Assembly: GCF_963977085.1 (NCBI RefSeq)
Contig: NZ_CAXBNC010000001.1
Span: 414,054 to 478,053, forward strand
From: an uncultured Paraglaciecola sp.
GTDB lineage: Bacteria; Pseudomonadota; Gammaproteobacteria; Enterobacterales; Alteromonadaceae
Length of the DNA stretch: 64,000 nucleotides
Direction of reading: 5' to 3'
A program made the position numbers and the translations under genes. The notes beneath the pieces were generated by a model, which searched no databases, was not told where the DNA came from, and was given only the letters and a program-made list of their open reading frames with translations. How positions within the stretch are numbered: the stretch's first letter is position 1; each line of letters opens with the position of its first letter. Positions 24,049 to 58,478 of this stretch are shown here, in pieces.

Positions 24049-24867
24049 TCAAAGTAGAACAAAATTCTCCTTATCAAAAATGTAATTTCTCGTTATTTTG
24101 TCGTCTTCAATGGCCGCAGCGTAGGTTAATTTACTGTGACTTTTTGCAATGTTTTTCCGAAGAGTATTTAAGCTGCTACACAAGAAATTATTGCAAGTAA
24201 ATGAACGCATATTGCTTGGCAGCGTACACCCTCTGTCTCCCTGAAAGACGCAAGCATTTTTATAAGTCTTAGTAGGTATGTAACGCCTATAGTTTTCAAC
24301 TAGTTCTTCCCCTGTGATACCTGCGGATTGAGTTGAGAGATATAGCTCTAATGAAGGATAGTCCTGATAAGCATTATCAGCACCGTCCGAAGTACAACAA
24401 TATCCTTTACACGTCTTACAAGCTTTCCCCAACAGTGTCGATTCCTCGGGCGAAAGCGGCGCTTTAAGTTCATCAGAATACACTCTTAGAGTGTTTTTAT
24501 CACCAGCCTGCATGTCATTAAATAAGGCTTTTAAGTGGTATAAAAATCCTTCTTTACGTGTTTCAGGAAGTGTTGTTACAACGTTGCTATTATCAGGTAA
24601 CAAGGCAGTGACAGGTTTGTGTTGTTCAATAGACTCCAGAAGTTTTACCGGAATAACATCCTGAGACTCAAGACTCAGCAAGTTTTTTAAATGGCTTTCA
24701 TGCAAATCAGTAAGAGCTTTATGAAGTTCATTGTGTTTATATTTTTTTAGCTCATTCAACATTTTGACCAAAGCAAGTTGACACTTTGGTTTTTTACAGT
24801 ATTTGCTACGAACATTGTCGATGAATGCCATCTATTCATGACAATGTTGGCAATGATATTTCAACAC
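24049..24867 (-). pseudogene. YkgJ/CxxCxxCC-like paralog 2, interrupted by an in-frame TAG near the N-terminus (260-aa ORF from 24831 could still be made)
   Basis: GTG at 24867 gives VLKYHCQHCHE*MAFIDNVRSKYCKKPKC, colinear with paralog 1; CKTCKGYCC...CVFQGDRGCTLP..MRSFTCNNFLC. Confidence 0.65.
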
Positions 24868-26732: not shown

Positions 26733-26908
26733 AAAAACTCCATATTTTACAATGAGATAAGAGAACAAGTTACGAAGTACAAACAAAATCAACAAGGCTT
26801 CACCCAAGTAAATGACTAAAAGTAACTATGTAAGATTCTCATCTATTAATTTAATAAAAAATAAGATTCTAAAGATAATTTAAAGACCCCAACCACTTAC
26901 CTTTAATG

Positions 26909-40829: not shown

Positions 40830-42395
40830 ATGCCATATTTGAAACTTAAAATTGTATCAGGCAGTGAAACAGGTCAGAACGATAACTATAACTTTACAGG
40901 AGTAGGCGGTTCCATTGGACGGTCTGATGATTGTGATTGGACGTTAATAGATAGCGATAGATTCGTTTCCAAAAAGCACTTAGTTATCACATTTAGAAAT
41001 CAACAGTTTGTATTAACGGATGTCAGTAGCAATGGTGTGATTATTAATAGTGCTGGCACACCATTGGGTCACGGCAATGAGCATATGCTTCAGGCTTCGG
41101 ATACACTTGTAATTGGAAAACACGTTGTTAAGGTTGAAGAAATTAACCTAGATGACGTTGGGGTTAACCCTTTTCAAACGCAAACAAATAATGGGGATTT
41201 ATTGGGTTTAGTCATGGACTCAAATGCAGCTACAGCACCAAAACAAGAGCCGGCCCAAGACCCATTTCAAGGGCAACAATCTCCATTCCAAATGCCTGAA
41301 AGTACTCCAGTACCAGACATACTCGATACGCCAAAACCAGAAAGTGATCTAGGCTTAGGAGATATTTTATCGGCACCAATTAATTCCCCCTCTGAAAACC
41401 AGTTTTCGAATGTTAATGAGCAATCCAACCCATTTAATACAAGTGAACCCTCATCTCCTTTTGATGTGATTTCTGAAAACAATGCCATTACTCCTAACAT
41501 TAAATCCGATGATGCGCTTATACCAGATGATTGGGAGATGTTTGATTCAATGTCTTCCGTTAGTGATTTTGAAACACCCATTAAATCCGAGGATCCAGTT
41601 CCGCCAATTGTGAATGAAGTAAGCCCGGAAACTAATGTACAGGTGCAACCTGATCTGCCTCAGAGTGCACCTGAGCCTATACCTGAATACAATTCACCAA
41701 TCTTTGAAGAAAAGCCTATTGTCAGGGCAATGCCTCAAGAAACTAGCCCACCCACTCCTGATAATGTAAAGCAAAGTGTGAGTGCCGAGGCCAATTCTAA
41801 AAATACTAACGATGATTTTTTTAGCTCCTTGTATGAAAAACTAGGGCTATCAAAAGAATTTAAGGCATCCATTGATCAAGACACTTTTGCCGAAGATATC
41901 GCGACCATCTTGTTATCAACAACCCAAGGACTCATGTCGCTATTAGCGAGTAGAACGGCCTTTAAACAAGAATCGCGGATGTCAGCAACACTTATACAGC
42001 CCAAATCTAATAACCCGATAAAATTTTCAATTGATCCCGTTGATACCCTAGAAATGCTATTGGTTAAGAAAAAAAAGGGGTACATGTCTGTAGGGAACTC
42101 TTATGATGAAGCCATGCAGGATATTCAATTACACCAAATGGCATTTATGTCAGGTTTACAAGGCACCTTAGATGGAGTGCTAGCGCAACTGGCCCCAGAG
42201 GGCATTGAAGCTCAAGTGAATAACAAATCCCAAATGTTTAAAGGATTAAACTCTAATTCACAGTGCTGGAAAATTTATAAAGAAAAACATCCTTTGCTTG
42301 CAAAGAGTGTAAAAGAGAATCTTAATGAGGTACTCGGTACTTATTTCTCAGATTCATATCAATCACATATTAATCGTTATAAGACTGACAAATAA
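40830..42395 (+). CDS. tagH: T6SS FHA-domain protein TagH
   Basis: N-terminal FHA (IGRS..CDW.L.D..RFVSK.H, DVSSNG); Pro/acidic linker; C-terminal SR..FK.E.R...T.I....NNPIKFS and HQMA...G. Confidence 0.92.
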   Translation: MPYLKLKIVSGSETGQNDNYNFTGVGGSIGRSDDCDWTLIDSDRFVSKKHLVITFRNQQFVLTDVSSNGVIINSAGTPLGHGNEHMLQASDTLVIGKHVVKVEEINLDDVGVNPFQTQTNNGDLLGLVMDSNAATAPKQEPAQDPFQGQQSPFQMPESTPVPDILDTPKPESDLGLGDILSAPINSPSENQFSNVNEQSNPFNTSEPSSPFDVISENNAITPNIKSDDALIPDDWEMFDSMSSVSDFETPIKSEDPVPPIVNEVSPETNVQVQPDLPQSAPEPIPEYNSPIFEEKPIVRAMPQETSPPTPDNVKQSVSAEANSKNTNDDFFSSLYEKLGLSKEFKASIDQDTFAEDIATILLSTTQGLMSLLASRTAFKQESRMSATLIQPKSNNPIKFSIDPVDTLEMLLVKKKKGYMSVGNSYDEAMQDIQLHQMAFMSGLQGTLDGVLAQLAPEGIEAQVNNKSQMFKGLNSNSQCWKIYKEKHPLLAKSVKENLNEVLGTYFSDSYQSHINRYKTDK

Positions 42396-42913: not shown

Positions 42914-44245
42914 ATGGCATGGGAAAAGAAGGTAATTTGGTCAGAAGGGATGATGCTTCAACCCCATCATTTTCAGCAACAATCCAGATATCATGAATCT
43001 CAGTTAAGATATAACATTTCTTTATGCCGACCCCATTTTTGGGGGATATCCTCTATTGAAATTGATAAAACACATTTAAAAAATGGTAAGTTTTGTATCA
43101 ATTCAGCAGAAGGTATTTTACCAGACGGCAGTTATTTTAATTTTCCGAGTATCGATAGCTTGCCTATGGCTATCGATATCAATGAAGATTTTTTGAATTC
43201 AACTATCTATCTAGCGGTTCCAATTAGGCGTAACGGTAATACAGAAACATCCCGTGACAGCGTAATTCATAGCCGATACTCAATAGCCGAACATGAAGCA
43301 AGAGATATATCTGGTATATCTTCAACGCAACAAATCGTCGAAGTATCTGGGCTGAGTTTTTGTTTACGTACTGATAAAGATGACAATAATGAGTTTAGTT
43401 GTATCCCCATCGCCTTTATAGAAGATGTAAGCACTAGTAATAACGTTAGCTTACAACCCAGTTTTATTGCTCCTAGTGTCAATATTAAGTGCAATTCTTA
43501 CATCTCTAGTTTTATAAGTGAATTGGTAAAACTGGTTAAACATCGTATTAGTGCACTTGCGTCACGTGTATCAGTAGCAGGAAAAGCGACAACGACTGAA
43601 GTAACCGACTTTTTGATGTTGCAGACGCTTAATCGACACTCACCTATCTTAATAAATTTAGATCAAGCAGAAGCCTTAGCCCCTTACGAATTGTATGAGA
43701 AGTTTATTGGCCTCATTGGGGATATGAGCACATTTATTAAAGCCGATAAAGTCACTCCTGACTTGCCAAGCTATCAGCACAGCAACCTAACACAGGTATT
43801 TAGCACCTTAATTGAAGAGCTAAGACAAGTCTTCAGCGTTGTGCTAGAGCAAAATTCGATCAACATTCCTTTACAAGAAAAGCAATATGGAATCAGTGTT
43901 GGTGTGATTGCAGACAAAACATTATTTTCTTCTGCCTCCTTTATACTTGCGGTCACCTCAGACCTTTCAACTGAAGAGCTTCGAAAATATTTTCAAGCGC
44001 AAATTAAAATTGGGGCAATTGAACAAATCAAAGAACTGGTCAATGTGCAATTACCTGGTATTCAGCTTAATAACTTAGCAGTAGCACCACGAGAAATTCC
44101 TTATCAACGTAATTTTATTTATTATGAATTGATTCAGAATGGAGAATATTGGACCGCCTTAACAGAGTCTGGTGGCATCGCATTACATGTAGGGACCAAG
44201 TTTCCAAATTTGAAAATTGAACTTTGGGCCATCAGGAGCAAATAA
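42914..44245 (+). CDS. tssK: T6SS baseplate subunit TssK
   Basis: KVIWSEGM.L.PHHFQQQ, DFLMLQ.LNR, LPGI.L..L.VAPR.IP, ELWAIR. Confidence 0.96.
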   Translation: MAWEKKVIWSEGMMLQPHHFQQQSRYHESQLRYNISLCRPHFWGISSIEIDKTHLKNGKFCINSAEGILPDGSYFNFPSIDSLPMAIDINEDFLNSTIYLAVPIRRNGNTETSRDSVIHSRYSIAEHEARDISGISSTQQIVEVSGLSFCLRTDKDDNNEFSCIPIAFIEDVSTSNNVSLQPSFIAPSVNIKCNSYISSFISELVKLVKHRISALASRVSVAGKATTTEVTDFLMLQTLNRHSPILINLDQAEALAPYELYEKFIGLIGDMSTFIKADKVTPDLPSYQHSNLTQVFSTLIEELRQVFSVVLEQNSINIPLQEKQYGISVGVIADKTLFSSASFILAVTSDLSTEELRKYFQAQIKIGAIEQIKELVNVQLPGIQLNNLAVAPREIPYQRNFIYYELIQNGEYWTALTESGGIALHVGTKFPNLKIELWAIRSK

Positions 44246-44247
44246 AA

Positions 44248-45558
44248 ATGCAAGACGAAGATAGGACTATGATTATTCCGAATCCAGGTGGACGACGGAA
44301 ATCAGGAAACACACAAACGTTCCGACCTTCTCCATCAGAGCCGACTCCGCCCAGTAGTCAGACAGTTCAAGTGAATTTAAATGCCTCTGCACAATTTGAT
44401 GGGGAAAATATAATTCTGTCTTCGGCAAGTGACTTGATAATTTTGGCAAGTCATATTCGCTCCTTGGAGCCGAGCAATAGTATTGAACAACTACGCAGAG
44501 ATATCGAAACTTTAATTACCAAATTTGACCAACAACTTAATCAATTTAATTTGAGCACAGAAGTAGCACTTACCGCGCGTTATCTCATATGTTGTTTACT
44601 TGATGAATTGGTACTCTCGACGCCTTGGGGATCAGATAGTGCTTGGAGTAATCAAACCTTACTCAGTAAGTATCACAATGAAACATCCGGTGGAGAGAAG
44701 TTTTTTCTCATCGTAAATAAACTATTGGAACAGCCGCAGCGCAACATTGATTTAATCGAGTTATGTTACGTCTGCTTATCATCAGGATTTTGTGGGAAAT
44801 ATCGACTTTCAAAACAAGGCGAATCTGAATTACTGGAAATAAGCCAGAGATTATATCGACCAATAGAACAGACTCGCCCTATTAGCCGTGATTTGTCTCC
44901 TAGTTGGCAAGGAGTAGGCGATTTAAAAACAGGTTTTGTTAAGGGGTTCCCACTTCCAGTATTTTTCCTAATTCTTGGGTTCATTTTAATCGCTGTGTAT
45001 ATTGCGTTTTTATCCAGTTTAAAAGCAAAAGTAGAACCTCTATACCAAAAAATAGAATCCATTGGCTGGGAGCAACCGATAACTCAACCAGTCAACATAC
45101 AGCCGAATCCTATTGATATAAATAAAGTTGCCAATTCACTGAAGCAAGCATTGAGCGTCTACATCGACAACAAAATAGTGTCCGTTGATGTAAGGAATGA
45201 TCAAATTTTTATACGCTTTATTAGTACAAGTTTATTTAAGTCAGGCAGTAGCGTAATTAATGAAAGTTCACTGCCAGATGTCAATGTATTGGTGAATGCC
45301 ATTAAAAATTATGCGGATCGAGTATTGGTCGTTGGACATACCGACTCCACAGGTAAGCCAGATTCAAATTGGGTTATATCCCGTAAAAGAGCAGAAGCCA
45401 TTGCTAAATGGTTAACAACAAGTAACCAACAATTGTTTAATACCATGACGAGAGGGGTTGCTGATACACAACCATTAGTAAGCGACGATAGCGATTACAA
45501 TCGAAGCATTAACCGCCGTGTTGAACTGACTCTGATTTTGAAGGATGAACTCATATAA
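44248..45558 (+). CDS. tssL: T6SS TssL (DotU) with C-terminal OmpA/MotB peptidoglycan-binding domain
   Basis: Start ATG 44248 (AGGAG RBS); RY..C..LDE.V..TPWG, H.ET.GGEKFF, one TM, GHTD...N..IS..RA and NRRVE. Confidence 0.94.
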   Translation: MQDEDRTMIIPNPGGRRKSGNTQTFRPSPSEPTPPSSQTVQVNLNASAQFDGENIILSSASDLIILASHIRSLEPSNSIEQLRRDIETLITKFDQQLNQFNLSTEVALTARYLICCLLDELVLSTPWGSDSAWSNQTLLSKYHNETSGGEKFFLIVNKLLEQPQRNIDLIELCYVCLSSGFCGKYRLSKQGESELLEISQRLYRPIEQTRPISRDLSPSWQGVGDLKTGFVKGFPLPVFFLILGFILIAVYIAFLSSLKAKVEPLYQKIESIGWEQPITQPVNIQPNPIDINKVANSLKQALSVYIDNKIVSVDVRNDQIFIRFISTSLFKSGSSVINESSLPDVNVLVNAIKNYADRVLVVGHTDSTGKPDSNWVISRKRAEAIAKWLTTSNQQLFNTMTRGVADTQPLVSDDSDYNRSINRRVELTLILKDELI

Positions 45559-48995: not shown

Positions 48996-49004
48996 TGATA
49001 TATA

Positions 49005-49703
49005 ATGAAAATTGGATTTTTTGGAAAACTACCTGGTTATGGCGATTTTGTACAACGTAATGTCAGTCCTGAATTTATAAAATATTGGGATAATTGGGTA
49101 TTACAGTCACTTAGCTCATCTCGGGATCAGTTAGGTGAGTCATGGCGAAACAGGTACTTTAATAGCCCAATATGGCGTTTTGTTATTAGCCAAGATGACG
49201 CAAGTCACACTCCGGTTGCAGGCTTTGTCATGCCAAGCGTAGATAAAGCCGGCCGCTGTTACCCTTTTACAGTGGTTTGCCAAGCTGAATCAGAAGTTAA
49301 CCCCTTTATACTCGCTCGAAAAATTGATCTGATACATGAGGTTGGAGAAGACTTTGCTTTAAGTCTATTGGAAAATATCAAGCCTGATCTCGACGAAATA
49401 ACAGTCGTTTTAAATGAGATATATCAAAGCCTGCAAGAATCAAACTGCCAAAGTGCAGGTACAAAACCCGTCACCTCAGTCATGGAGCTTGCTTGTGTTA
49501 CAGATATTGATTCACTTGATTTTACACTAGGTAATGAGTCTTTCTTACACATGTTACTAAATAAGCAAAATGTGAATATGTCAATTTGGTCGATGGGAAA
49601 TACCGAAGGCACAAACCCTCAAATACGCTATTTTTCTGGGATGCCGCCAACAGATAACTACTATTCTTTTTTACTTGCTGATGAGAACCAAGAAAGTTAT
49701 TAA
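49005..49703 (+). CDS. tagF: T6SS post-translational repressor TagF
   Basis: GFFGKLP..GDFV.R, P.WRF, G..MPSVD.AGR.YPF. Confidence 0.93.
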   Translation: MKIGFFGKLPGYGDFVQRNVSPEFIKYWDNWVLQSLSSSRDQLGESWRNRYFNSPIWRFVISQDDASHTPVAGFVMPSVDKAGRCYPFTVVCQAESEVNPFILARKIDLIHEVGEDFALSLLENIKPDLDEITVVLNEIYQSLQESNCQSAGTKPVTSVMELACVTDIDSLDFTLGNESFLHMLLNKQNVNMSIWSMGNTEGTNPQIRYFSGMPPTDNYYSFLLADENQESY

Positions 49704-49716
49704 CGACTGACTTAGC

Positions 49717-50514
49717 TCATCGAGTTAGAGGTAAGGTATCGTCTAAGTTTGATTGGTTAGTATGAATATTTTTACTTCCATCCATGATCTCTAAAGACTG
49801 TTGATTATCAACAACTATTACAGTGACATTATCCCGAGCTTTGCGTTCCAATGACATTTTTATTAATAGTGGCGCAATAGATTCTAATGGTGTGCTCAAT
49901 AAAAGTTGCTCAATCTCGGCATCATCAATAACTTTGTTTAGACCGTCACTACATAAAAAATATTTATCCCCGTCTAGCCTAACATCGCTAACTACATCCA
50001 AGTCTAACTCTTCACTTGCACCAACAGCGCGAGTGATAACATTAGCATTTGGATGACGTTCGGCTTCTTCAGGTGTTAAAAGTCCTTTCTGCACCAACTC
50101 TTCAACTTGACTATGATCTTGGGTAAGTCGGGTTAGTTTATTATTACGTACCCGATAAATTCGGCTATCACCCGCCCAAATACAGTGGGCAAATTGATGG
50201 TCAAAAAGCAGTACAACTACCGTACTTCCAATAACTGCTTGTTTCTCACTCGCCATTGAGACTAATCGACTATTAACGTCCTGCAATACATGGGCGATTT
50301 GCTGAGTACCCAGGGGATAACTATTTGTATTGGCTATATCCTGCAAACTATTAACTATCATTTTGCTGGCTACATCACCTTTAGCATGCCCACCCATTCC
50401 ATCGGCCACACACCACATGCCTTGTTGAGAACTGTCTAAAAATCCATCTTCATTAACTTTTCTAATAGTGCCAATATCTGTTTTCCCTACCGATTTCCAT
50501 GGACGTTCAAGCAT
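49717..50514 (-). CDS. pppA: PP2C-family Ser/Thr phosphatase (PppA-like)
   Basis: TD.G..R..NED, VADGMGGH..GD.AS, GDSR.Y, LTQDHS, LCSDGL, DNVT; start moved to ATG 50514. Confidence 0.88.
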   Translation of the reverse strand: MLERPWKSVGKTDIGTIRKVNEDGFLDSSQQGMWCVADGMGGHAKGDVASKMIVNSLQDIANTNSYPLGTQQIAHVLQDVNSRLVSMASEKQAVIGSTVVVLLFDHQFAHCIWAGDSRIYRVRNNKLTRLTQDHSQVEELVQKGLLTPEEAERHPNANVITRAVGASEELDLDVVSDVRLDGDKYFLCSDGLNKVIDDAEIEQLLLSTPLESIAPLLIKMSLERKARDNVTVIVVDNQQSLEIMDGSKNIHTNQSNLDDTLPLTR

Positions 50515-50733
50515 AATTATTGTTCCCAGTGCAGCCAATATATAAAACACATTACAGGTTTCGGACAGCTAAGTCGCCCTAACTTCTTTAATACATAAAC
50601 TCGAAACATTATAGATACAAATGTCTTTGATTGCTGGTATTTTTCTAGGTAGACTTAAGGTCAAATTCTGCACGAATTTTCTTACATATTGAAGCCATTC
50701 TTGCATTAATTCTCAAAAAAATAAGGTCGCTTA

Positions 50734-53016
50734 ATGGAAGAAAACATATTGAATAAAAAGATTGGGCGCTACGAGATCAAGGAAATGATCGGTGAAGGTG
50801 CGATGGCTAAGGTCTACCGTGCATATGATCCTGAAATTAATCGCTCTGTTGCTTTCAAAGTACTCAAAGAAGATCACTGTGTAGATGAAGAGTATTTGTC
50901 TAGATTTTTACGTGAAGCTAAGGCTGCTGGAGCTCTTTCCCACTCAGGAATTGTGACCGTTTATGATGTGGGTAAAATAGAAAAGTCTCCCTATATTATG
51001 ATGGAGCTTTTAGATGGCTGTGACTTAGGTGAAGTCCTTAAGAACAATAAAAAACTGCCACTTAAGCAAACTCTGATTATTGCTTTACAACTCGCTAAAT
51101 CCCTAGATTATGCCCATAAATCCGGGATCATTCATCGTGATATTAAACCTGATAACATTATCGTTATGCCAGATGGTGAGTCTATTAAGGTCGCAGATTT
51201 TGGTATAGCAAGGATGAACGAGACTGAAGAGTCTCAAAAAACTCAAGTAGGTTCTGTTTTAGGCACCCCCCGCTACATGTCACCAGAACAAGCTCTAGGA
51301 GATACTGTTGATGGCCGTTCGGATTTATTTTCCGTAGGCACTATCATGTACGAAATGCTTAGTGGCAATAAAGCGTTTGATGCCGGAAATATGGCCACTT
51401 TAATGATACAGATTGCGCAGAAACAACCTGAACCCTTAAAAACTTTATGCCCGGACATTCCAGCGGGTGTGCGTCAAATAATTCAAAAGTTATTACAGAA
51501 ATCTCCCGACAAACGCTTTCAAACGGGAAACAAACTAGCAGAGGCATTGGGCAAAGAATTAAGTACCTTAAGCGATCAACAAGCTGAGCAGAAAAAACAC
51601 AAATATATTCCTTTAAAAATACGCTGGACATTGTCAGTTGCTGCAATTGTAGGTCTCGTTTCTTTTATAAGCATAAATATCGTTTTTAACATGCAATCTT
51701 CGGCAATGACTAAACAAGCTGTCGACTCTGGTGCGTCGTTTGCAAAATTCATTTCTACAGAAACGGCTATACCAATACTCAGTGAAGATTGGATCTCCTT
51801 AGAGACGTTTATTGGTGATGCCGCAAGTAGAGATACATTTTCATATTTAATCGTTACTGACAGGTCTGGAGTGGTTCGCGGAGCAAGTGATAATAGTTTG
51901 GTAGGCAAGATGTACCAACCAAATGAAAATGATGTGCTTATTAGTGAAACCGAAGATGTACATACAACTAGTACAGAAACAGCAGATGGTAAAAATATAT
52001 TTAACATCAAAACGCCTATTTTGTTTCAAAGCACTGAAGTTGGCCAAATAATCCTAGGTTTATCTCAAGATGGATTAGATGAGGTTAAAAGGATTACAGG
52101 TTGGCTGATGTTTATTTTAGCGCTCATCACAACATCTTCAGTGGCTGTGGTTATGTTTATTTTTGGTGGCTTAATCGCTCGACCATTTAAGGTATTAAAT
52201 GACTCTCTGAAAGGTTTTGCGGCAGGAAATTTAGACACCAGAATATCGTTGGCTCGAAATGATGAATTTGGTGAGGCATTTGATTCCTTTAATAATATGG
52301 CCGCAGCGATTCAAGACAGATACACAGAAGTAACTGATGAGCTAGCGCAAACAGGTATCGATAGGACAGGGATTACTGACAATAACTCCAAAGATACCGA
52401 TGCAGAAACCGAACACTCCGATAGCAACAGTGCTCAGAAGAGCGTTTCGGATCCCGGGGTAGATTTAGGACCTGATGAAACCGTGATCTCCAATAGCCAA
52501 ATCGATCTCAAAAATAAATCTGACCAGGCTACAAAAAAAGCGGTAACTCAACACCCAGAACCATCAGAGGTTTCTGAGAATAAAGCTGAAGTTGAATCTG
52601 AGATAGATGAAGACGCTGACAGGACGATCATTTCTAACAGTCAGATTGGTCTCAATACTGCGCCAAACGAAGCCAGCAAAGAGATCACTGAAAATGTTAA
52701 GAAACCAGAAATGTCTGAAACCAGTTCTGATGTAGAGGTCAACCCAGACCAAACAGTGATTTCTTCTAGCCAAATTATTATAAATGAAGACTCTGATGTG
52801 AGTGATGGTAAACCTGAAGACTCAACTTCCACCGCTACTCAGACAGACATAGCGGCTCCACCGAAGAGCACTAAAGAGACTGAGGTACAAACGCCAGCTA
52901 AAAAACCACCAGTAAAACGTAGAACTAGAAAGAAACCAGTGAAAGCGCCGGTAGAAGCTGAGGATGCAATAAAAAAAGACACGGTTGCCGATCCTGACGA
53001 GAGTGCAAAAAGTTGA
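50734..53016 (+). CDS. Membrane Ser/Thr kinase (PpkA-like) with two TMs, periplasmic domain, HAMP domain and acidic tail
   Basis: IGEGAMAKVY, VAFK, HRDIKPDN, DFGIA, GTPRYMSPEQ; TMs near residues 300-320 and 455-480; HAMP motif PF..L....K.FAAGNL..RI...RNDEFG. Confidence 0.9.
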   Translation: MEENILNKKIGRYEIKEMIGEGAMAKVYRAYDPEINRSVAFKVLKEDHCVDEEYLSRFLREAKAAGALSHSGIVTVYDVGKIEKSPYIMMELLDGCDLGEVLKNNKKLPLKQTLIIALQLAKSLDYAHKSGIIHRDIKPDNIIVMPDGESIKVADFGIARMNETEESQKTQVGSVLGTPRYMSPEQALGDTVDGRSDLFSVGTIMYEMLSGNKAFDAGNMATLMIQIAQKQPEPLKTLCPDIPAGVRQIIQKLLQKSPDKRFQTGNKLAEALGKELSTLSDQQAEQKKHKYIPLKIRWTLSVAAIVGLVSFISINIVFNMQSSAMTKQAVDSGASFAKFISTETAIPILSEDWISLETFIGDAASRDTFSYLIVTDRSGVVRGASDNSLVGKMYQPNENDVLISETEDVHTTSTETADGKNIFNIKTPILFQSTEVGQIILGLSQDGLDEVKRITGWLMFILALITTSSVAVVMFIFGGLIARPFKVLNDSLKGFAAGNLDTRISLARNDEFGEAFDSFNNMAAAIQDRYTEVTDELAQTGIDRTGITDNNSKDTDAETEHSDSNSAQKSVSDPGVDLGPDETVISNSQIDLKNKSDQATKKAVTQHPEPSEVSENKAEVESEIDEDADRTIISNSQIGLNTAPNEASKEITENVKKPEMSETSSDVEVNPDQTVISSSQIIINEDSDVSDGKPEDSTSTATQTDIAAPPKSTKETEVQTPAKKPPVKRRTRKKPVKAPVEAEDAIKKDTVADPDESAKS

Positions 53017-53990
53017 GGTATTTATTTCTGATCTTTTTGCCCGTTTTGTTGTTCGGCTGTTCAACAACACCTAGGCAAGTAATTGCGAGTAATGATGATT
53101 TTATCGTTTTACAGACAGATAATAATGATACTTATGAGTCCTTAGCCGAAGAGTTTTTAGGTGGCCAGCAATATTCAGAAATTCTAGAAAGATACAACCC
53201 ACAAACAACTGTAAAGTCAGGTAGTTATGTAGCCATTCCCAAAAGAGTCATCAACCGTTCTGGTGTTTTTGTTGATGGCTATCAACGTATACCGGTTCTC
53301 TGCTATCACCAATTTACCGAAGAAAATCAAAGTAAAAATAAGATGGTAGTGACCCGAGCTGAGTTTGAACGCCAGATGGATTATCTCGCTTCAAATGGCT
53401 ATCAAGTGCTAGCACTAAGTGAATTAGGCAACTTTCTAAAGGGTGAAAAAGAACTACCTAAAAAATCAGTTGTGATAACCATAGACGATGGTTATAGGAG
53501 CTACCTGGAAGTGGCTTATCCTATTTTAAAAAAATATGATTTTCCCTCCACAATGTTTGTTTACCCAGACTTTATAGGAGCAGGCCGAGCCCTCAAATGG
53601 CAAGACGTAAAATTCCTAAGTAAAATACCTTTGGTAGACATTCAATCCCACTCCAAATCACATGATAGTTTATCGCCGCGGCCATTAGGTGAATCAGATG
53701 AAGACTATTTAGCACGATTAAAAATTGAAGTTGAAGGGGCAGAAAAAATATTAACCCGTAGAACCAAACAAGAAATTAATCATTTTGCCTATCCATATGG
53801 AAATAGTAGTTTAGAAGTAGTTGAACTCTTAGAACACAACAATTACGAACTTGCGGTCACAGTTCATAAAGGAAGTAACCCTTCATTTTCAACTCCATTT
53901 TTATTGCATAGAACCATGATATATGGAGGAGATAGTCTAAACACTTTCAAGAAAAGCTTGGATGTATTTAGTACTATGGCGCTCAAATGA
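53013..53990 (+). CDS. Lipoprotein with LysM-like domain and CE4 polysaccharide deacetylase domain
   Basis: Lipobox LFGC; DTYESLAEEFLG...I..YN LysM-like segment; PVLCYH, TIDDG, QSHSKSH and FAYPYG catalytic motifs intact; TTG start overlapping the kinase stop. Confidence 0.88.
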   Translation: MRYLFLIFLPVLLFGCSTTPRQVIASNDDFIVLQTDNNDTYESLAEEFLGGQQYSEILERYNPQTTVKSGSYVAIPKRVINRSGVFVDGYQRIPVLCYHQFTEENQSKNKMVVTRAEFERQMDYLASNGYQVLALSELGNFLKGEKELPKKSVVITIDDGYRSYLEVAYPILKKYDFPSTMFVYPDFIGAGRALKWQDVKFLSKIPLVDIQSHSKSHDSLSPRPLGESDEDYLARLKIEVEGAEKILTRRTKQEINHFAYPYGNSSLEVVELLEHNNYELAVTVHKGSNPSFSTPFLLHRTMIYGGDSLNTFKKSLDVFSTMALK

Positions 53991-54913
53991 TAGAACGTAT
54001 TATCTGTGTAACCCTGTTAGTTTTTTGTAGTTCTTGCAGCACAAATTTTATAGATAGCCGCGCGTTGTTCGAACAGCGTAGTCCAATTGCTAACTCTTTA
54101 GAAGACCAGCAACGTTATGCAGAAGCGCTGACACAATGGAAGATTTTGCAGATAGCCTATCCTAACGATGAAATGGTAAAAGAGCATATACTGCGGCTCG
54201 AACTTTTAATATCAGATAAAGTCATTCAGCAACTCGCTGTTTTAGACAAAGCTAAGGCATCAGCGGATGAAACCTTAGAGCGCAAGGTCTATTTAAAAAT
54301 ATTGGCTTTAGATCCTAATAATCAAATTGCAATGGAAGAGTTACGAAAGTTTGAATGGAAATTTGCTATTCAAGAAGCCAGCTCAAAAACTGCAAATATT
54401 AAGAAGTATTTTGTTGAGACACAACAAGAGGCTAATATTTCAATCCAACTCACTAAGTATCTTGAGCAAGGTGAGCAGTTAATACATGATAGAAAGTACA
54501 AAGAGTTATTACAGCTAGCTGATAAATTTGAAGATTCTTACCCTACACACCTAGAGCCTAACGAGTATCGGATACTAGCCTATTCCAAACTAGGAGAAGG
54601 TCAGCAAAAGCAGAATAAAACAAAAGAAGCCATTGAGTATTACCAGCAAGCATTGGACCTAGCCGCGCTTAAAGGTGATAATTTACCCAACATACGCAAA
54701 AAAACAGATCAACTCTCAAGCTTAATTGCAAACAGGTATTTACGATTAGCCAATCAAGTATTTAAAACTAATTTAGATGAGGCGATTAATTACTTTGAGC
54801 AGTCTCTTAAATATCAACCCAACAATGTTAAGACTCGCCAACTAATGCAGCGAGCCATAAAGATTAGAGAGAACTTATTAAAAATTAAAAAACTAGACTC
54901 TAATTCCGATTAA
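53987..54913 (+). CDS. TPR-repeat protein, probable lipoprotein
   Basis: N-terminal hydrophobic stretch ending CSSC; TPRs (AL.QW, LALDPNN, AI.YF..SL.YQP.N). Confidence 0.7.
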   Translation: MIERIICVTLLVFCSSCSTNFIDSRALFEQRSPIANSLEDQQRYAEALTQWKILQIAYPNDEMVKEHILRLELLISDKVIQQLAVLDKAKASADETLERKVYLKILALDPNNQIAMEELRKFEWKFAIQEASSKTANIKKYFVETQQEANISIQLTKYLEQGEQLIHDRKYKELLQLADKFEDSYPTHLEPNEYRILAYSKLGEGQQKQNKTKEAIEYYQQALDLAALKGDNLPNIRKKTDQLSSLIANRYLRLANQVFKTNLDEAINYFEQSLKYQPNNVKTRQLMQRAIKIRENLLKIKKLDSNSD

Positions 54914-56111
54914 GTTTATTTAATTTTTCTTTGAGCTCTAAAGCCTGCGCCCTATATAGTTTTGCACTTGAATGGTCAGGATTTACCTTCAAAACCATAT
55001 CCCATTTTTGAATTGCGAGATCGAGTTCTTGACGTCGAAAAGCAGATGACGCTTCTCTATGGTATTTATCAGCAATTTCTTTCTGTAATACCAACATTTC
55101 TTCCATCGCTTGGTCATTTTGATCGTCTAGGTCAGTTGCCATTTTAAAGTTTTCAAACGCACTAAACGCATTTTCTTCTTGTAAATTTAACTGCCCAGCT
55201 TTTTCGAAGTATGTTGCAGCTAGGATATTGTCGGTTTCAGCAATTTCTTTTGCTCGTCCGATATAGGTTGCTATTGCCAGCCCTCTACTTTCCTTATTAA
55301 GCTTACCAAATGAACTCAGTGTGGCTAGTTTTTCAATTGCGGCGGCGTAATCCATATTTTCCGCTAATGTTTGCAAATCACTAAATGCAGACTCTGCCGT
55401 TTCAATTGGAGCGACAGGAATAACTTCCGCTAAAACTGGCTCATCAACAGGTAGTTCAGTTTCTTCAACTATGTCCTCAACAACGTCAACGGCTTCCTCT
55501 ACTTCTTTGGCTTCCTCTTCCATTGCCAAATCAAGGGCAGTTTCCTCGTTATCTATACTATGAGTTTCGAGGGCCAAGGCGTTATCTTTATCACGTTGAG
55601 TCCGTGCAAGTTGCGTCAAAGGTATTTTGATTTCTTGCCCTATGTTAACCCGGCTAGGATTGGCAATATTATTGTACTTAGCTAAAGCGTAAAATTTTAA
55701 GGCTGAGCCTAAGTACTTTTTCGCAAGTGTAGAAAGACTCGCGCCAGAGGTTAGATTAACTTTGAAATGTTCTGCTGGGAAATATTGGCTCGAGTCAGTG
55801 GATATTTGTGCAACTAAATTTCTCGCACTATTACTTCTAGGTACCGCTTCTAGATATGCATTAAGCTCAGCTAAGGCCTGTCCATCTTCACCATTTTCAA
55901 GTTTTTCTAACGCTTTGCTAAAACGTTGTCTAGGTGTCAAACCGGCTTCAGCGATATAACTTTGTTTATTTAGAGAACCCTTATCTTTATTTACCTCTGC
56001 TGGGGTAGTATTTCCTGTTGAACCACCACTAGCGCCACATCCAGATAAAATTAACCCCGCAACTAATAACGCAGCTGATAATTTTATTTTATTGTCCATA
56101 CAACTAATCAT
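54900..56111 (-). CDS. LysM and TPR lipoprotein
   Basis: Lipobox LSGC; G.SLS.LAKKYLG....F..LA.YNNIANP..V.IGQ.IKIP LysM; acidic linker; C-terminal TPR. Confidence 0.82.
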   Translation of the reverse strand: MISCMDNKIKLSAALLVAGLILSGCGASGGSTGNTTPAEVNKDKGSLNKQSYIAEAGLTPRQRFSKALEKLENGEDGQALAELNAYLEAVPRSNSARNLVAQISTDSSQYFPAEHFKVNLTSGASLSTLAKKYLGSALKFYALAKYNNIANPSRVNIGQEIKIPLTQLARTQRDKDNALALETHSIDNEETALDLAMEEEAKEVEEAVDVVEDIVEETELPVDEPVLAEVIPVAPIETAESAFSDLQTLAENMDYAAAIEKLATLSSFGKLNKESRGLAIATYIGRAKEIAETDNILAATYFEKAGQLNLQEENAFSAFENFKMATDLDDQNDQAMEEMLVLQKEIADKYHREASSAFRRQELDLAIQKWDMVLKVNPDHSSAKLYRAQALELKEKLNKLNRN

Positions 56112-56264
56112 TTATAACCCCTGAAAATATAAGAAACGGCCGTCGATAATCTAAGTTTCTCGGTACAAAGCAGTTTAATACAATTGTAATCGTCAAGCAT
56201 GTTTTTCCATCTGAATTTTTTCATGTATTTGCTAACATATTGAAAATAATATGGTATATCGCTT

Positions 56265-57287
56265 CTACAATATAAGTAGTTGTCCTTGTTTAGCAAGTAT
56301 AAACTTAAATCCATGGGTATTTCCTTGTTGCAATTCTTGCTGGATTTTCACTCTTGGATCCATACCACTTTTTAGGCTGTACTTAATATGGCTAATGATG
56401 AAGGTTAAATCTTTAAATTGCTGCTTATTAGCCACTAACGAATAGAAATAATCCAGTTCTGACAATAACCAGTTTGGGGTAAGGTGACCAAATAGCAAAT
56501 TATCAGGTTGGCTATTATCAAATGAGACTTCTATGGCCACGCCCCTAAGGTTTTTAGTTTGCATTTGTGTGGCTAAATAACGCCAAACCCTTGCAAGCTT
56601 ACCTTGTTTTTCTACCTTATCTGGACCGGTGTCACCAAAATATACAAACAGATTATCTTGGTATTCAATCACAAAGGCAGTTGACTCAAGCGGATGACTG
56701 AGACTAAAAGCTGTCACTTTTAGTTTGGTCTCTTTAAGGTTCATTGGGTGCTGAGGAACTAAATCTATAACTTGGTATTTGTTTAAAAAAGGAGGCTTGC
56801 CTCTATCGGTAAAATTCGCCCAGGCCTGCCAGTTGAAATAGGTGTCACTCATCGTTTGGTTGACTGACTTCAGCCCATAAATAGCCTTGTTATTATCTTC
56901 AGGTGAGGCAATCAATAAACCAGCCACATGGTCGAGGTGGCCATGGCTAATCAAATAACCTTTAATATGATGCTGTAAAATGTTTCCGGTTGGGGAGAAC
57001 CTATTATCTATTTTGAGAGGCAAGTCTTTAAAGGCGTTGTTATCTAAGGCAACGTTGATGCCATTAATCAAGGTACCTGCATCCAAGGCAATATAATTAG
57101 GTTCAGATAACGTCCTCAATAAGAAAGCACTGAGATTACCGTCTTGGATCCCACCAGTACTGCCCAAGGTTATTATCTCAAAGACCGCTGTCGAATCAGG
57201 TCTATTACTTAAGGGTGATGGTTCCCCACGTAATTGACACGAAAAAATCAATAAGGCGACCAATAAACTACATTTTTTACACTGCAA
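56265..57287 (-). CDS. cpdP: Class II 3',5'-cyclic nucleotide phosphodiesterase (periplasmic, CpdP-like)
   Basis: Signal peptide; LG..GG..DGNLSA, LDAGT, YLISH.HLDH.AGL, FN...W.NF, FGDTGPD, LFGHLTP, ISHIK. Confidence 0.85.
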   Translation of the reverse strand: MQCKKCSLLVALLIFSCQLRGEPSPLSNRPDSTAVFEIITLGSTGGIQDGNLSAFLLRTLSEPNYIALDAGTLINGINVALDNNAFKDLPLKIDNRFSPTGNILQHHIKGYLISHGHLDHVAGLLIASPEDNNKAIYGLKSVNQTMSDTYFNWQAWANFTDRGKPPFLNKYQVIDLVPQHPMNLKETKLKVTAFSLSHPLESTAFVIEYQDNLFVYFGDTGPDKVEKQGKLARVWRYLATQMQTKNLRGVAIEVSFDNSQPDNLLFGHLTPNWLLSELDYFYSLVANKQQFKDLTFIISHIKYSLKSGMDPRVKIQQELQQGNTHGFKFILAKQGQLLIL

Positions 57288-58478
57288 TTACTTCACCTTA
57301 GGTTGGTTTACTTCAGTGCCCATACTTTGTTTATATAACATTAGCGCTTGTTTTTGGTCATCCTGGGACTCCTTGATACTCGACATCAACACCAAATCCT
57401 CTTGTCGATTACCTAATTTAATGGCCTTAGCTAAGGCTTTTTCTGCCAAAAGTTTGTCGTTTGCATTAAACGCGATATGGCCTAAGGTGGATAACAATTC
57501 AACATTCAAATCATCTTTTTTTAGCCAAGTCTCTAGTTTTTTAATAGAGCCTGCTGGGTTAGGCAATTTAATCTGTTTAAACAAAGGTAATAACAAAGGA
57601 TGAGGTGAAGAAGTCTGGCATTCCAGCAAAGCTTGTTCGGCATCAAAATGCATACCTTGGTCAATCAGCTGCTGAATATATGCCGCTTGTTGTGCAGGAT
57701 CCTTACGAGTTGATCTGGGTAAAGATTGCCAATTCTGTTTCAGCTGTTCTGCACCTTCTTTACTCGCAATTTCGGCAAAGTTACCTTTAGATGCTTGTTG
57801 CATCAGTGCTTCGTAGTCATCACCTAATGCTTTTCTCCAACCTTTTAACTTTTCTTTTAACTCTTGCCACTTACCAGCCTGACCAAGTGCTTGTGCCCAG
57901 AGTTTTAACACAGCGGTTTGAGTTTGTTGTTTTTCGCTTAGGCTTTGAATCAGTGTAATCGCTTCATCTGATTGATAGTGCTGCAAGGCATCTCGAATTA
58001 AACATAAATTCGCTGCCAGAGCTGATTTTTCATAGGTTTTAGCCATACGCCAATAACGCTTAGCTTGTTCTAGTTGACCTAATTGGATCTCAGCATCGGC
58101 TGCGGCTAAAAGATTGATCCCATCAAAATCTTCATTTTCGATTTTCTTAAAATTTTCTCTTGCAACCTGATAGTTGGTTTCTGCCAATGCGATTAAACCT
58201 GAAGTAAATGCTCTTTGTTTTTTACGACTGCCCCAATTACCTAACCAGTTTTTCGAGCCCGAAGCAGCAGCCAAGGAGGCTTTTACCAACAAATTAATCA
58301 ACATTAGGCCAACAAAAATAGCAATCAAAGAAAGGCAAAGTGACCAGACATTCATTTCGGCAACCCAACCGTTGAATTCGACCATCACATATCCGCTATC
58401 ATCAAACATCATCGCGGCTATCACTACACTAATAAGCAGGATAACCAAAACCAGAAAAATTCTAATTAATTGACTCAT
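57288..58478 (-). CDS. hemY: Heme biosynthesis-associated TPR protein HemY (enterobacterial type)
   Basis: N-terminal TM, GYV...F, TPRs; last gene of the hemC-D-X-Y order. Confidence 0.88.
   Translation of the reverse strand: MSQLIRIFLVLVILLISVVIAAMMFDDSGYVMVEFNGWVAEMNVWSLCLSLIAIFVGLMLINLLVKASLAAASGSKNWLGNWGSRKKQRAFTSGLIALAETNYQVARENFKKIENEDFDGINLLAAADAEIQLGQLEQAKRYWRMAKTYEKSALAANLCLIRDALQHYQSDEAITLIQSLSEKQQTQTAVLKLWAQALGQAGKWQELKEKLKGWRKALGDDYEALMQQASKGNFAEIASKEGAEQLKQNWQSLPRSTRKDPAQQAAYIQQLIDQGMHFDAEQALLECQTSSPHPLLLPLFKQIKLPNPAGSIKKLETWLKKDDLNVELLSTLGHIAFNANDKLLAEKALAKAIKLGNRQEDLVLMSSIKESQDDQKQALMLYKQSMGTEVNQPKVK

What the first reader, a model, noticed from the sequence alone, without database searches (positions are those of the whole stretch)
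53013..56111. Three-lipoprotein LysM/deacetylase/TPR module tied to the T6SS kinase
Seen: kinase, LysM-CE4 deacetylase and TPR lipoprotein are chained by 4-nt overlaps; a LysM-TPR lipoprotein converges with a 14-nt overlap. The two TPR proteins end in similar modules (LDEAINYFEQSLKYQPNN..RA vs LDLAIQKWDMVLKVNPDH..QA). Known: LysM binds peptidoglycan GlcNAc, and N-deacetylation protects peptidoglycan from muramidases. Inference: a cell-wall-sensing replacement for TagQRST that activates the kinase, and/or wall armouring against incoming effectors, or local remodelling for T6SS insertion.
Basis: partly seen in the sequence, partly recalled or inferred. Interest (0 to 1): 0.68.

Follow-up and report, generated by a model that had tools for sequence, protein, structure and literature searches.

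The report
Cell-wall-sensing lipoprotein trio on T6SS kinase
Three outer-membrane lipoprotein genes (a sugar deacetylase and two scaffold proteins, two of the three with cell-wall-binding LysM domains) are welded to the membrane kinase that switches on this bacterium's type VI secretion weapon; the same trio travels with the same sensor domain in many other bacteria whatever that sensor's output, so it is most likely an undescribed cell-envelope sensor.

Summary
The window carries PpkA (kinase-TM-Cache-TM-HAMP), a LysM-like CE4 deacetylase lipoprotein, a TPR lipoprotein and a converging LysM-TPR lipoprotein, with TTGA, ATGA and 14-nt overlaps. All are under purifying selection, and each lipoprotein has an invariant lipobox Cys.

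The cassette is conserved in 16 Alteromonadaceae genomes, in Alphaproteobacteria and in 75 metagenome loci. In an even draw of 301 Alteromonadaceae genomes, all 14 carriers have a T6SS (p=1e-9), and 13 carry the cassette 17-26 kb from tssC.

It is not T6SS-specific. Six genomes without a sheath gene keep all or part of it, with an FHA protein in five. The same Cache-HAMP sensor, CE4 and LysM-TPR genes also occur with an adenylate/guanylate cyclase (10 loci) or a PP2C output (1 locus) in place of the kinase.

The lipoproteins therefore follow the periplasmic sensor, not the secretion machine. I read them as the sensory input (most likely peptidoglycan state) to the T6SS threonine-phosphorylation switch. 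This would be a fourth kind of PpkA activator beside TagQRST, RtkS and TssW.

Wall armouring and remodelling for T6SS insertion are poorly supported. The deacetylase belongs to the PgaB/IcaB/PplD clade, its catalytic residues are intact, and the genome has no PNAG synthase. Nothing has been tested experimentally.

The parts
50734..53016 (+). PpkA-type Hanks Ser/Thr kinase. Layout: kinase (1-285), TM, periplasmic sCache_3_2 (323-450), TM, HAMP (478-528), then an acidic disordered tail.
   Evidence: Pfam Pkinase 5e-51, sCache_3_2 1e-06, HAMP 2e-08. Orthologues lie beside the trio in every locus.
53013..53990 (+). Lipoprotein with a divergent LysM-like domain (about 30-76) and a CE4 de-N-acetylase of the PgaB/IcaB/PplD clade (about 93-320). 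TTG start in a TTGA overlap with the ppkA stop.
   Evidence: (H99, D158, D159, H213, H217 and C16 invariant).
53987..54913 (+). All-helical TPR lipoprotein (308 aa) in an ATGA overlap with the CE4 stop. Its C-terminal ~67 aa resemble the C-terminus of the LysM-TPR protein.
   Evidence: (C17 invariant). A same-strand TPR gene follows CE4 in 67 of 68 assessable metagenome loci.
54900..56111 (-). LysM-TPR lipoprotein (403 aa). Layout: lipobox LSGC, flexible tether, TPR-like hairpin (60-104), LysM (115-164), acidic disordered linker (186-233), C-terminal TPR domain (239-402).
   Evidence: AlphaFold pLDDT above 90 in the folded parts; only generic TPR and BamD-like fold matches.
49717..50550 (-). 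PppA, the PP2C phosphatase partner of the kinase. Conserved next to the cassette in Alteromonadaceae.
40830..42395 (+). Fha (FHA + T6SS_FHA_C), the likely reader or substrate of PpkA phosphorylation.
   Evidence: FHA genes accompany 12 of 27 kinase-type metagenome loci in view and 5 of 6 sheath-less genomes.
49005..49703 (+). TagF, the post-translational repressor of the T6SS switch.
44224..45558 (+). TssL with a C-terminal OmpA-type peptidoglycan-binding domain. It is a possible second PpkA substrate and the wall anchor of the machine.

Best explanation
The three lipoproteins and the periplasmic Cache domain of PpkA form one trans-envelope sensory unit.

Shown by sequence and comparison:
- The kinase, CE4 and TPR genes are translationally coupled, and the LysM-TPR gene converges on them.
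- All three accessory proteins have lipoprotein signal sequences with no Asp at +2. By the E. coli sorting rule (my knowledge) they would be outer-membrane anchored and face the periplasm.
- The CE4 domain keeps every catalytic and metal residue.
- The same four-part unit is conserved across Gamma- and Alphaproteobacteria and in many metagenomes.
- The accessory genes follow the Cache-HAMP sensor regardless of its cytoplasmic output (Hanks kinase, class III cyclase or PP2C).

Inferred mechanism:
- The LysM domains hold the deacetylase and the LysM-TPR scaffold on a GlcNAc-containing glycan, most likely the cell's own peptidoglycan.
- The TPR domains bridge to each other and to the Cache domain.
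- A change in the glycan alters Cache-HAMP signalling. Candidate changes are damage, exposure of fresh acetylated strands, or release of fragments.
- CE4 either produces the ligand or erases LysM binding sites, which would act as a reset or self-mark.

In this genome the output would be PpkA autophosphorylation, then recruitment or phosphorylation of Fha (and perhaps TssL), and so assembly of the adjacent T6SS. PppA and TagF would oppose this.
For: Anatomy and conservation:
- Gene layout and overlaps.
- Conserved cassette in 16 Alteromonadaceae genomes, in Ningiella, in Emcibacter and a Sphingomonadales MAG, in a Pseudomonadales MAG and in 75 metagenome loci.
- A TPR gene follows CE4 in 67 of 68 assessable loci, and a Cache-HAMP gene lies immediately upstream in 33 of 37.
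- Five CE4 paralogue loci without the LysM-like N-terminus have none of these partners.

Output swapping:
- 27 kinase, 10 cyclase and 1 SpoIIE/PP2C sensors.
- A Cache-only HMM built from kinase-type sensors matches the periplasmic domains of the cyclase and PP2C types over its full length, E 1e-17 to 5e-7.

Link to T6SS and to FHA signalling:
- 14 of 14 carriers among 301 Alteromonadaceae genomes are T6SS-positive (Fisher p 1.1e-9), and 13 lie 17-26 kb from tssC. The cassette accompanies two TssC types, about 75% and about 40% identical to the window's.
- Sheath-less genomes keep the module, most with an FHA protein and a phosphatase.

Protein-level support:
- Catalytic residues are invariant.
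- LysM folds are predicted.
- Purifying selection acts on all four genes.

Precedent: outer-membrane or periplasmic accessory proteins act on the PpkA periplasmic domain in TagQRST, RtkS and TssW (PMC13584744, PMC12607579).
Against: - There is no experimental, transcript or interaction evidence.
- The ligand is unknown. The CE4 clade includes PNAG and rhamnopolysaccharide-linkage deacetylases as well as Bacillus wall-associated proteins, so peptidoglycan is only the most parsimonious substrate.
- sCache_3_2 domains usually bind small carboxylates (my knowledge), not proteins or glycans.
- Co-transcription alone would also fit lipoproteins that are co-produced effectors rather than inputs.
- Three T6SS-positive Paraglaciecola genomes lack the module, so it is not required for T6SS in general.
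- Counts of 'no T6SS' in metagenome loci are upper bounds, because flanks are at most 10 kb and the HMMs were built from few sequences.
Confidence: 0.62

Rival explanations
1. Environmental GlcNAc-polymer sensing. The trio captures chitin or chito-oligosaccharides (or foreign peptidoglycan fragments) in the periplasm. CE4 converts them to a partly deacetylated oligomer, or releases acetate, and that product is the true Cache ligand. This would tie T6SS firing to growth on chitin or to lysed neighbours.
For: - LysM binds chitin as well as peptidoglycan (established knowledge), and six CE4 orthologues hit the plant receptor-kinase LysM model PF23577.
- The hosts are marine polysaccharide degraders (titles).
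- Cache domains are small-ligand binders.
- Enzyme-makes-ligand logic exists in Vibrio chitin signalling through the chito-oligosaccharide deacetylase and ChiS-CBP (my knowledge, not tested here).
Against: - The cassette is equally common in soil, rhizosphere and sediment metagenomes and in Alphaproteobacteria, where chitin is not an obvious common cue.
- No chitinase or chitoporin genes are linked in the loci examined.
- The CE4 belongs to the PgaB/IcaB clade, not to the chitin or chito-oligosaccharide deacetylase clade.
Confidence: 0.15
2. Structural wall editing for the T6SS. The deacetylase and its LysM/TPR partners locally modify peptidoglycan so that the membrane complex can insert or be positioned, for example through the OmpA-type domain of TssL. 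This would resemble Legionella PgdA controlling DotK binding and Dot/Icm localisation, or TagX/MltE remodelling. The kinase linkage would reflect co-expression only.
For: - TssL here carries an OmpA peptidoglycan-binding domain.
- Legionella peptidoglycan deacetylation controls T4SS localisation via DotK (PMC10266036).
- The module lies inside T6SS clusters in 13 of 14 Alteromonadaceae carriers.
Against: - The trio never sits next to tssJLM. It always sits next to the sensor, and in Bowmanella and the second T6SS type it lies beyond VgrG and the cargo genes.
- It persists in six genomes without a sheath gene.
- It also occurs with cyclase or PP2C sensors that have no T6SS nearby.
- 60 of 74 T6SS-positive Alteromonadaceae genomes lack it.
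Confidence: 0.1
3. Wall armouring or immunity. The CE4 de-N-acetylates the cell's own peptidoglycan to resist muramidase or amidase effectors from neighbours, and is co-expressed with the attack-sensing switch.
For: - N-deacetylation protects peptidoglycan from lysozyme-type enzymes (established knowledge; PMC10266036).
- Retention in T6SS-less genomes would fit a purely defensive role.
Against: - Armouring does not explain the obligate pairing with a Cache-HAMP sensor of any output, or the need for two TPR scaffolds.
- A single outer-membrane-tethered enzyme made from a weakly expressed regulatory operon is an unlikely bulk wall modifier (inference).
- The enzyme is remote from proven PgdA/PdaC enzymes: Foldseek E about 4e-3, against 1e-15 to 1e-17 for the PgaB clade.
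Confidence: 0.08
4. Exopolysaccharide (PNAG-like) modification machinery, analogous to PgaB with the PgaA TPR domain or PelA with PelB, and only regulated by the neighbouring sensor.
For: - The closest solved and curated relatives are PgaB, IcaB and BpsB.
- Deacetylase plus TPR-scaffold pairs are typical of synthase-dependent exopolysaccharide systems (my knowledge).
Against: - The genome has no PgaC/IcaA synthase: best 56 bits against a cut-off of 422.
- No glycosyltransferase or porin is linked in any locus examined.
- The protein scores far below the PgaB equivalog cut-off (107 against 322 bits) and lacks PgaB's C-terminal domain.
Confidence: 0.05

Closest known systems
TagQRST-PpkA-PppA-Fha1-TagF threonine phosphorylation pathway of the Pseudomonas aeruginosa H1-T6SS
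   Same: - A Hanks kinase, PP2C phosphatase, FHA protein and TagF lie inside a T6SS cluster.
- An outer-membrane lipoprotein and periplasmic partners act upstream of the kinase's periplasmic domain (PMC13584744).
- The likely cue is envelope damage.
   Different: - No TagQ, TagR, TagS or TagT homologues are in the cluster.
- The kinase passes the membrane twice, with a Cache domain and a HAMP domain, instead of once with a C-terminal periplasmic domain.
- The accessory proteins are a LysM-CE4 enzyme and two TPR lipoproteins.
- The module also exists with non-kinase outputs and without a T6SS.
RtkS (Serratia) and TssW (Acidovorax citrulli), other periplasmic or outer-membrane activators and positioners of PpkA
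   Same: They are accessory envelope proteins encoded beside ppkA that bind its periplasmic domain and control T6SS activation or position (PMC13584744, PMC12607579).
   Different: - No domain in common is reported: the TssW paper does not mention TPR, LysM or deacetylase, and the 2026 accessory-factor review that lists RtkS has none of these terms. I did not compare the sequences directly.
- They are single proteins with no enzyme.
- They are known only from T6SS loci.
PgaB / IcaB / BpsB / PplD clade of CE4 de-N-acetylases
   Same: - The NodB fold has the His-first (circularly permuted) motif order, and Asp-Asp, His-x-x-x-His and the N-terminal catalytic His are all conserved.
- It is a lipoprotein, like PgaB.
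   Different: - It scores below every curated cut-off.
- It has an N-terminal LysM-like domain and no PgaB C-terminal domain.
- The genome has no PNAG synthase.
- The substrate is unknown.
PASTA-domain Ser/Thr kinases (PknB/PrkC/StkP) and plant LysM receptor kinases with lipid-anchored LysM co-receptors
   Same: The logic is the same: a Ser/Thr kinase whose extracytoplasmic input is binding of peptidoglycan or GlcNAc glycan. In plants, lipid-anchored LysM proteins act as co-receptors (my knowledge).
   Different: - There is no PASTA domain.
- The glycan-binding domains are on separate lipoproteins, not on the kinase.
- An enzyme is part of the unit.
- The setting is a Gram-negative periplasm.
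- This is an analogy only.
Legionella PgdA-DotK control of Dot/Icm localisation
   Same: A CE4 deacetylase affects a secretion machine through the acetylation state of peptidoglycan, which is read by an OmpA-type domain (PMC10266036).
   Different: - That enzyme is a PgdA-type protein unlinked to a kinase.
- Here the enzyme is welded to a sensor and also occurs without any secretion system.

Membership tests
CE4 / NodB-homology de-N-acetylase | NodB homology domain present | tested here: met
   Pfam PF01522 at E 6.5e-19, 68.5 bits against a cut-off of 23.1. All 15 orthologues match.
CE4 / NodB-homology de-N-acetylase | Catalytic base Asp, metal triad Asp-His-His and catalytic acid His are conserved | tested here: met
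   H99, D158, D159, H213 and H217 are invariant in 15 and in 14 diverse orthologues. They align to the corresponding PgaB motifs.
PgaB (PNAG deacetylase) equivalog | Score over the curated cut-off, a C-terminal PNAG-binding domain, and a pgaC synthase in the genome | tested here: not met
   TIGR03938 scores 107.5 bits against 321.9. The protein is only 325 aa. The best PgaC_IcaA hit in the 99.99%-complete genome is 56 bits against 422.3.
Peptidoglycan GlcNAc deacetylase (PgdA/PdaC type) | Close similarity to proven peptidoglycan deacetylases, and activity on peptidoglycan | tested here: inconclusive
   Foldseek to SpPgdA and PdaC gives only E 4e-3 to 9e-3, against 1e-15 to 1e-17 for the PgaB/PplD/BC0361 clade. 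Activity cannot be tested with these tools.
LysM domain (PF01476) | Match over the gathering score in the LysM-TPR protein | tested here: met
   25.6 bits for the whole protein and 29.9 bits for the excised domain, against a cut-off of 20.9. The model shows beta-alpha-alpha-beta at 115-164.
LysM domain | LysM in the N-terminus of the deacetylase | tested here: inconclusive
   The window's protein gives E 0.14 for PF23577, below the cut-off. Six of 15 orthologues match PF23577 at E 0.05 or better, best 9.9e-5. hhalign to the LysM of the LysM-TPR protein gives E 0.0036 but probability 9%. AlphaFold shows beta-alpha-alpha-beta at 30-76 with pLDDT about 80-89.
Bacterial lipoproteins | Signal peptide ending in a lipobox with an invariant Cys | tested here: met
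   C16 (CE4), C17 (TPR) and C25 (LysM-TPR) are invariant across orthologues and are preceded by L/V/A-x-G/A/S. Lipidation itself cannot be tested here.
T6SS threonine phosphorylation pathway (TagE/PpkA, TagG/PppA, TagH/Fha, TagF) | Hanks kinase, PP2C, FHA protein with T6SS_FHA_C, and TagF encoded in a complete T6SS cluster | tested here: met
   The cluster spans 26952-53016 and holds TssA-C, TssE-G, TssJ-M, Hcp, VgrG and ClpV.
TagQRST sensor module | TagQ lipoprotein, TagR (FGE-sulfatase-like) and the TagS/TagT ABC-type pair present in the cluster | tested here: not met
   Pfam annotation of the ORFs of at least 120 aa from 22082 to 59809 shows no ABC ATPase, permease or FGE-sulfatase domain. 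Two ORFs there (24049-24831 and 25098-26807) gave no Pfam match.
P. aeruginosa-type PpkA | Single-pass kinase with a C-terminal periplasmic domain | tested here: not met
   The layout is kinase, TM, sCache_3_2, TM, HAMP, cytoplasmic tail.

The most novel reading that the evidence does not exclude
Cache-HAMP sensor + LysM-CE4 + LysM/TPR lipoproteins is a widespread, output-agnostic periplasmic peptidoglycan-state receptor of Gram-negative bacteria. It would be the functional counterpart of PASTA kinases and plant LysM receptor complexes. An enzyme would edit the ligand's acetyl marks to give adaptation or self-marking. T6SS clusters in several lineages have recruited the kinase version, so that the weapon is assembled where and when the wall is perturbed.
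Probability: 0.3. Interest if true: 0.85.

Novelty: new variant of a known kind. Interest (0 to 1): 0.72.

Why it matters
Outside Pseudomonas (TagQRST), Serratia (RtkS) and Acidovorax (TssW), it is largely unknown how T6SS kinases of the PpkA type receive their signal. This cassette offers a fourth, enzymatic and glycan-binding input that can be tested in non-pathogenic marine type strains.

The same sensor-plus-lipoprotein unit also drives cyclases and phosphatases in soil and sediment bacteria. It may therefore be a general, undescribed way for Gram-negative cells to read the state of their wall or of GlcNAc polymers. The 2026 review of T6SS accessory genes lists no deacetylase, LysM, TPR or HAMP component. 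Four full-text searches found no description of it.

Tried and rejected
- BLASTP of the two TPR proteins found nothing significant. Only the profile comparison recovered the shared C-terminal module.
- Pfam LysM on the excised N-terminus of the window's deacetylase fell below threshold.
- The promoter and terminator scan of 49000-57500 gave no more sites than shuffled sequence, so the operon structure rests on gene overlaps only.
- The fold search of the LysM-TPR model returned only generic TPR hits (designed CTPR proteins, BamD) and no specific relative.
- tblastn of the CE4 against 72,556 plasmids found no match at E 1e-40.
- PNAG as substrate is rejected for lack of a synthase.
- The core CE4 paralogue of the genus (G000:C3, 36% identity, no LysM) sits between GNAT and MatE genes, with cytochrome-oxidase assembly genes further along. 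It has no kinase or TPR partner, so it gave no clue to the substrate.
- I considered a random class- or phylum-level genome draw but dropped it, because the expected hit rate was too low to be informative. I used the metagenome scan instead.
- The Sinorhizobium 'peptidoglycan modifier' TagY turned out to be an M15 peptidase and is unrelated.

Full report
**What is in the window.**
The finding lies at the right-hand end of a complete type VI secretion cluster (26952-53016).
- On the minus strand: ClpV, TssG, TssF, TssE, TagJ, Hcp, TssC, TssB and TssA.
- On the plus strand: VgrG, a DUF4280 PAAR-like protein, Fha, TssJ, TssK, TssL (with an OmpA domain), TssM and TagF.
- Then PppA on the minus strand and PpkA on the plus strand.
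- PpkA is not of the Pseudomonas type. It reads kinase, TM, sCache_3_2, TM, HAMP, then a long acidic tail.
- Beyond the module come a class-II cAMP phosphodiesterase gene and hemY/hemX, which are ordinary chromosome genes.

**Check of the observation.**
The overlaps are exactly as described.
- ppkA and the CE4 gene share TTGA, with a TTG start.
- The CE4 and TPR genes share ATGA.
- The TPR and LysM-TPR genes converge with a 14-nt overlap.
- The 4-nt couplings recur in most orthologous loci. The 14-nt overlap recurs only in the close clade (coordinates).
- All three products have an invariant Cys behind a lipobox in every orthologue.
- The LysM of the 403-aa protein passes Pfam's threshold.
- The LysM of the deacetylase is divergent. 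Pfam does not call it in this protein. Six of 15 orthologues match the LysM_RLK model, and the AlphaFold model (pLDDT 78.7) has a beta-alpha-alpha-beta unit at residues 30-76.
- The two TPR proteins show no BLASTP similarity. Their profiles align over the last 67 residues with E 1e-5 and probability 82%. That fits the TPR lipoprotein being an old, LysM-less duplicate of the LysM-TPR protein.
- dN/dS is 0.06-0.17 for all four genes against three relatives.

**The deacetylase.**
- Sequence and fold place it in the PgaB/IcaB/BpsB/PplD/BC0361 clade of CE4 enzymes. hmmsearch to PgaB gives 1e-28, and Foldseek gives 1e-15 to 1e-17 for that clade.
- It is far from PgdA/PdaC-type peptidoglycan deacetylases, at about 4e-3.
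- H99, D158, D159, H213 and H217 are invariant, so it should be an active metal-dependent de-N-acetylase.
- It is not PgaB. It scores far below the curated cut-off, lacks PgaB's second domain, and the 99.99%-complete genome has no PgaC/IcaA synthase.
- The substrate is therefore open. Peptidoglycan is the most parsimonious candidate, because two LysM domains travel with the enzyme.

**Distribution in the family.**
The window belongs to a Paraglaciecola genome (titles).
- The five-gene set pppA / ppkA-CE4-TPR / LysM-TPR is conserved in 16 species-level Alteromonadaceae genomes: Paraglaciecola, Glaciecola, Bowmanella, Neptunicella and unnamed members. It is also in Ningiella.
- In the window's clade it abuts tagF-tssM.
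- In three Bowmanella species it lies at the far end of a collinear T6SS cluster, beyond VgrG and a PAAR-like nuclease toxin gene.
- In four other genomes it occupies the same position in a different T6SS type, with TssC about 40% identical.
- In an even draw of 301 Alteromonadaceae genomes, 14 carry the CE4 orthologue and 74 carry a sheath gene. All 14 carriers are T6SS-positive (Fisher p 1.1e-9), and in 13 the CE4 gene is 17-26 kb from tssC on the same contig.

**Occurrence without a T6SS.**
The module is not a T6SS part. No sheath gene was found in these genomes:
- Paraglaciecola hydrolytica S66 (100% complete). Here the module sits between fadR and slyD with pppA and a small FHA protein.
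- An uncultured Paraglaciecola MAG, where the module lies beside hemXY but acyl-CoA dehydrogenase, beta-lactamase and carboxylesterase genes follow pppA.
- Emcibacter sp. and a Sphingomonadales MAG. Both have kinase-CE4-TPR / LysM-TPR, followed by a 706-710-aa TPR protein, an Fha with T6SS_FHA_C, a DotU/TssL-like protein and a PP2C.
- A Pseudomonadales MAG, with small FHA-kinase-CE4.
- Haliea sp., which has a reduced set: LysM-TPR, a small FHA protein and a kinase-less Cache protein.

**The decisive comparison.**
- A metagenome scan with conserved CE4 motifs returned 80 loci. I annotated them with HMMs built from the loci already in hand.
- 75 loci have the LysM-like N-terminus.
- A same-strand TPR gene follows CE4 in 67 of 68 assessable loci.
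- A Cache-HAMP gene lies immediately upstream in 33 of 37 assessable loci, and two more have it just downstream.
- The five CE4 loci without the LysM-like part have no partners at all.
- The Cache-HAMP protein carries different outputs. 27 have an N-terminal Hanks kinase. 10 have a C-terminal class III adenylate/guanylate cyclase: Pfam confirmed this in L119, L122 and L124, and the rest were assigned by BLAST. One has a SpoIIE/PP2C domain.
- A Cache-only HMM made from kinase-type sensors matches the periplasmic domains of the cyclase and PP2C types end to end, E 1e-17 to 5e-7.
- The cyclase type is a three-gene operon of sensor, CE4 and LysM-TPR (TPR-LysM-TPR, about 400 aa), with no T6SS genes in view.
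- Of ten kinase-type loci of 12 kb or more, five show T6SS structural genes, one shows only Fha and TssL, and four show none.

**Interpretation.**
Periplasmic accessory proteins that stay with one periplasmic sensor domain while the cytoplasmic output is swapped are most simply explained as partners of that sensor domain. That makes them an input or co-receptor unit, not products regulated by it.

In this genome the output is the T6SS threonine-phosphorylation switch: PpkA to Fha and perhaps TssL, opposed by PppA and TagF.

The following steps are inference:
- that the ligand is peptidoglycan;
- that the LysM domains tether the enzyme and scaffold to it;
- that the TPR domains contact the Cache domain;
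- that deacetylation creates the ligand or erases LysM sites.

The alternatives are chitin-oligomer sensing, wall editing for T6SS insertion or positioning (as with Legionella PgdA-DotK, PMC10266036), armouring, and exopolysaccharide modification. They are weighed in the rival explanations. The last three fit the distribution poorly.

**Comparison with what is known.**
- Known activators of PpkA are TagQRST, RtkS and TssW (PMC13584744, PMC12607579). No domain in common with the trio is reported for them: the TssW paper does not mention TPR, LysM or deacetylase, and the review that lists RtkS has none of these terms. I did not compare the sequences directly.
- The 2026 catalogue of T6SS accessory genes mentions no deacetylase, LysM, TPR or HAMP component.
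- Four full-text searches found no description of the cassette.
- The LysM-TPR model has only generic TPR and BamD-like fold neighbours.
- The LysM-TPR family is small, with 119 clusters, mostly Alteromonadaceae. The LysM-CE4 family is large, with 1331 clusters at E 1e-45 or better.
- Earlier notes of this scan describe the same cassette in three other genomes. They agree with this reading but are not independent evidence. The output-swapping result is new here.

**Limits.**
- The promoter scan was uninformative.
- The metagenome flanks are short and the in-house HMMs are thin, so 'no T6SS nearby' is an upper bound.
- Four of the six sheath-less genomes are isolates or complete assemblies, or at least not labelled MAGs; the others are MAGs.
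- Nothing has been tested at the bench.

Noticed in passing
L119:8188-9846, L122:8366-9769, L124:13028-14542, L114:2560-4317: The same sCache_3_2-HAMP sensor, with the same LysM-CE4 and LysM-TPR neighbours, carries a class III adenylate/guanylate cyclase (10 metagenome loci) or a SpoIIE/PP2C domain (1 locus) instead of a Hanks kinase.
   Followed up: yes
L071:6083-17014 (Emcibacter sp. SYSU 3D8) and L072 (Sphingomonadales MAG): These genomes have no sheath gene. They keep kinase-CE4-TPR / LysM-TPR followed by a 706-710-aa TPR protein, an Fha with a T6SS_FHA_C domain, a DotU/TssL-like protein and a PP2C. This looks like a T6SS phospho-switch, with its TssL-like target, surviving without the machine.
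   Followed up: partly
L065:10001-12438 (Haliea sp. E1-2-M8): A reduced version: a 263-aa LysM-TPR protein, a small FHA protein and a 295-aa Cache protein with no kinase domain, set among housekeeping genes (queG, tsaE, amiB, mutL, hfq). No CE4 gene is present.
   Followed up: partly
window 56265-57287 (-): A class-II 3',5'-cyclic-nucleotide phosphodiesterase (CpdP-like, with an N-terminal signal sequence) lies directly upstream of the LysM-TPR gene on the same strand. It is conserved there in the P. arctica clade and absent in L024. This is curious given the cyclase-output variants elsewhere, but it is probably coincidental.
   Followed up: no
L026:16233-19697 (Bowmanella pacifica): A Tox-PAAR-like + Tox-GHH2 nuclease toxin gene and a HEAT-repeat gene (a possible immunity gene) lie between VgrG and pppA. 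In this genus the sensor cassette is separated from the machine by cargo genes.
   Followed up: partly
G000:C3:91717-92322 (L017:7352-8407): A second CE4 gene (351 aa, 36% identical, no LysM-like N-terminus) is found in nearly all searched genomes of the genus. It sits between GNAT and MatE genes, with cytochrome-oxidase assembly genes further along, and has no kinase or TPR partner.
   Followed up: partly
L028, L030, L031 (downstream of pppA): Conserved genes for a transglutaminase-like protein, several small proteins and a long pentapeptide-repeat protein lie between pppA and VgrG in the second T6SS type. They look like a VgrG-associated cargo or adaptor island.
   Followed up: no
L106:8053-12741: One metagenome T6SS locus has CE4, a TPR gene and a converging LysM-TPR gene directly beside tssA, with no kinase gene in between. 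It is the only T6SS-linked case seen without the sensor.
   Followed up: no
window 52474-52776: The PpkA tail carries three D-x-T-[VI]-I-S-[NS]-S-Q-I repeats. I did not re-examine them beyond reading the translation.
   Followed up: no
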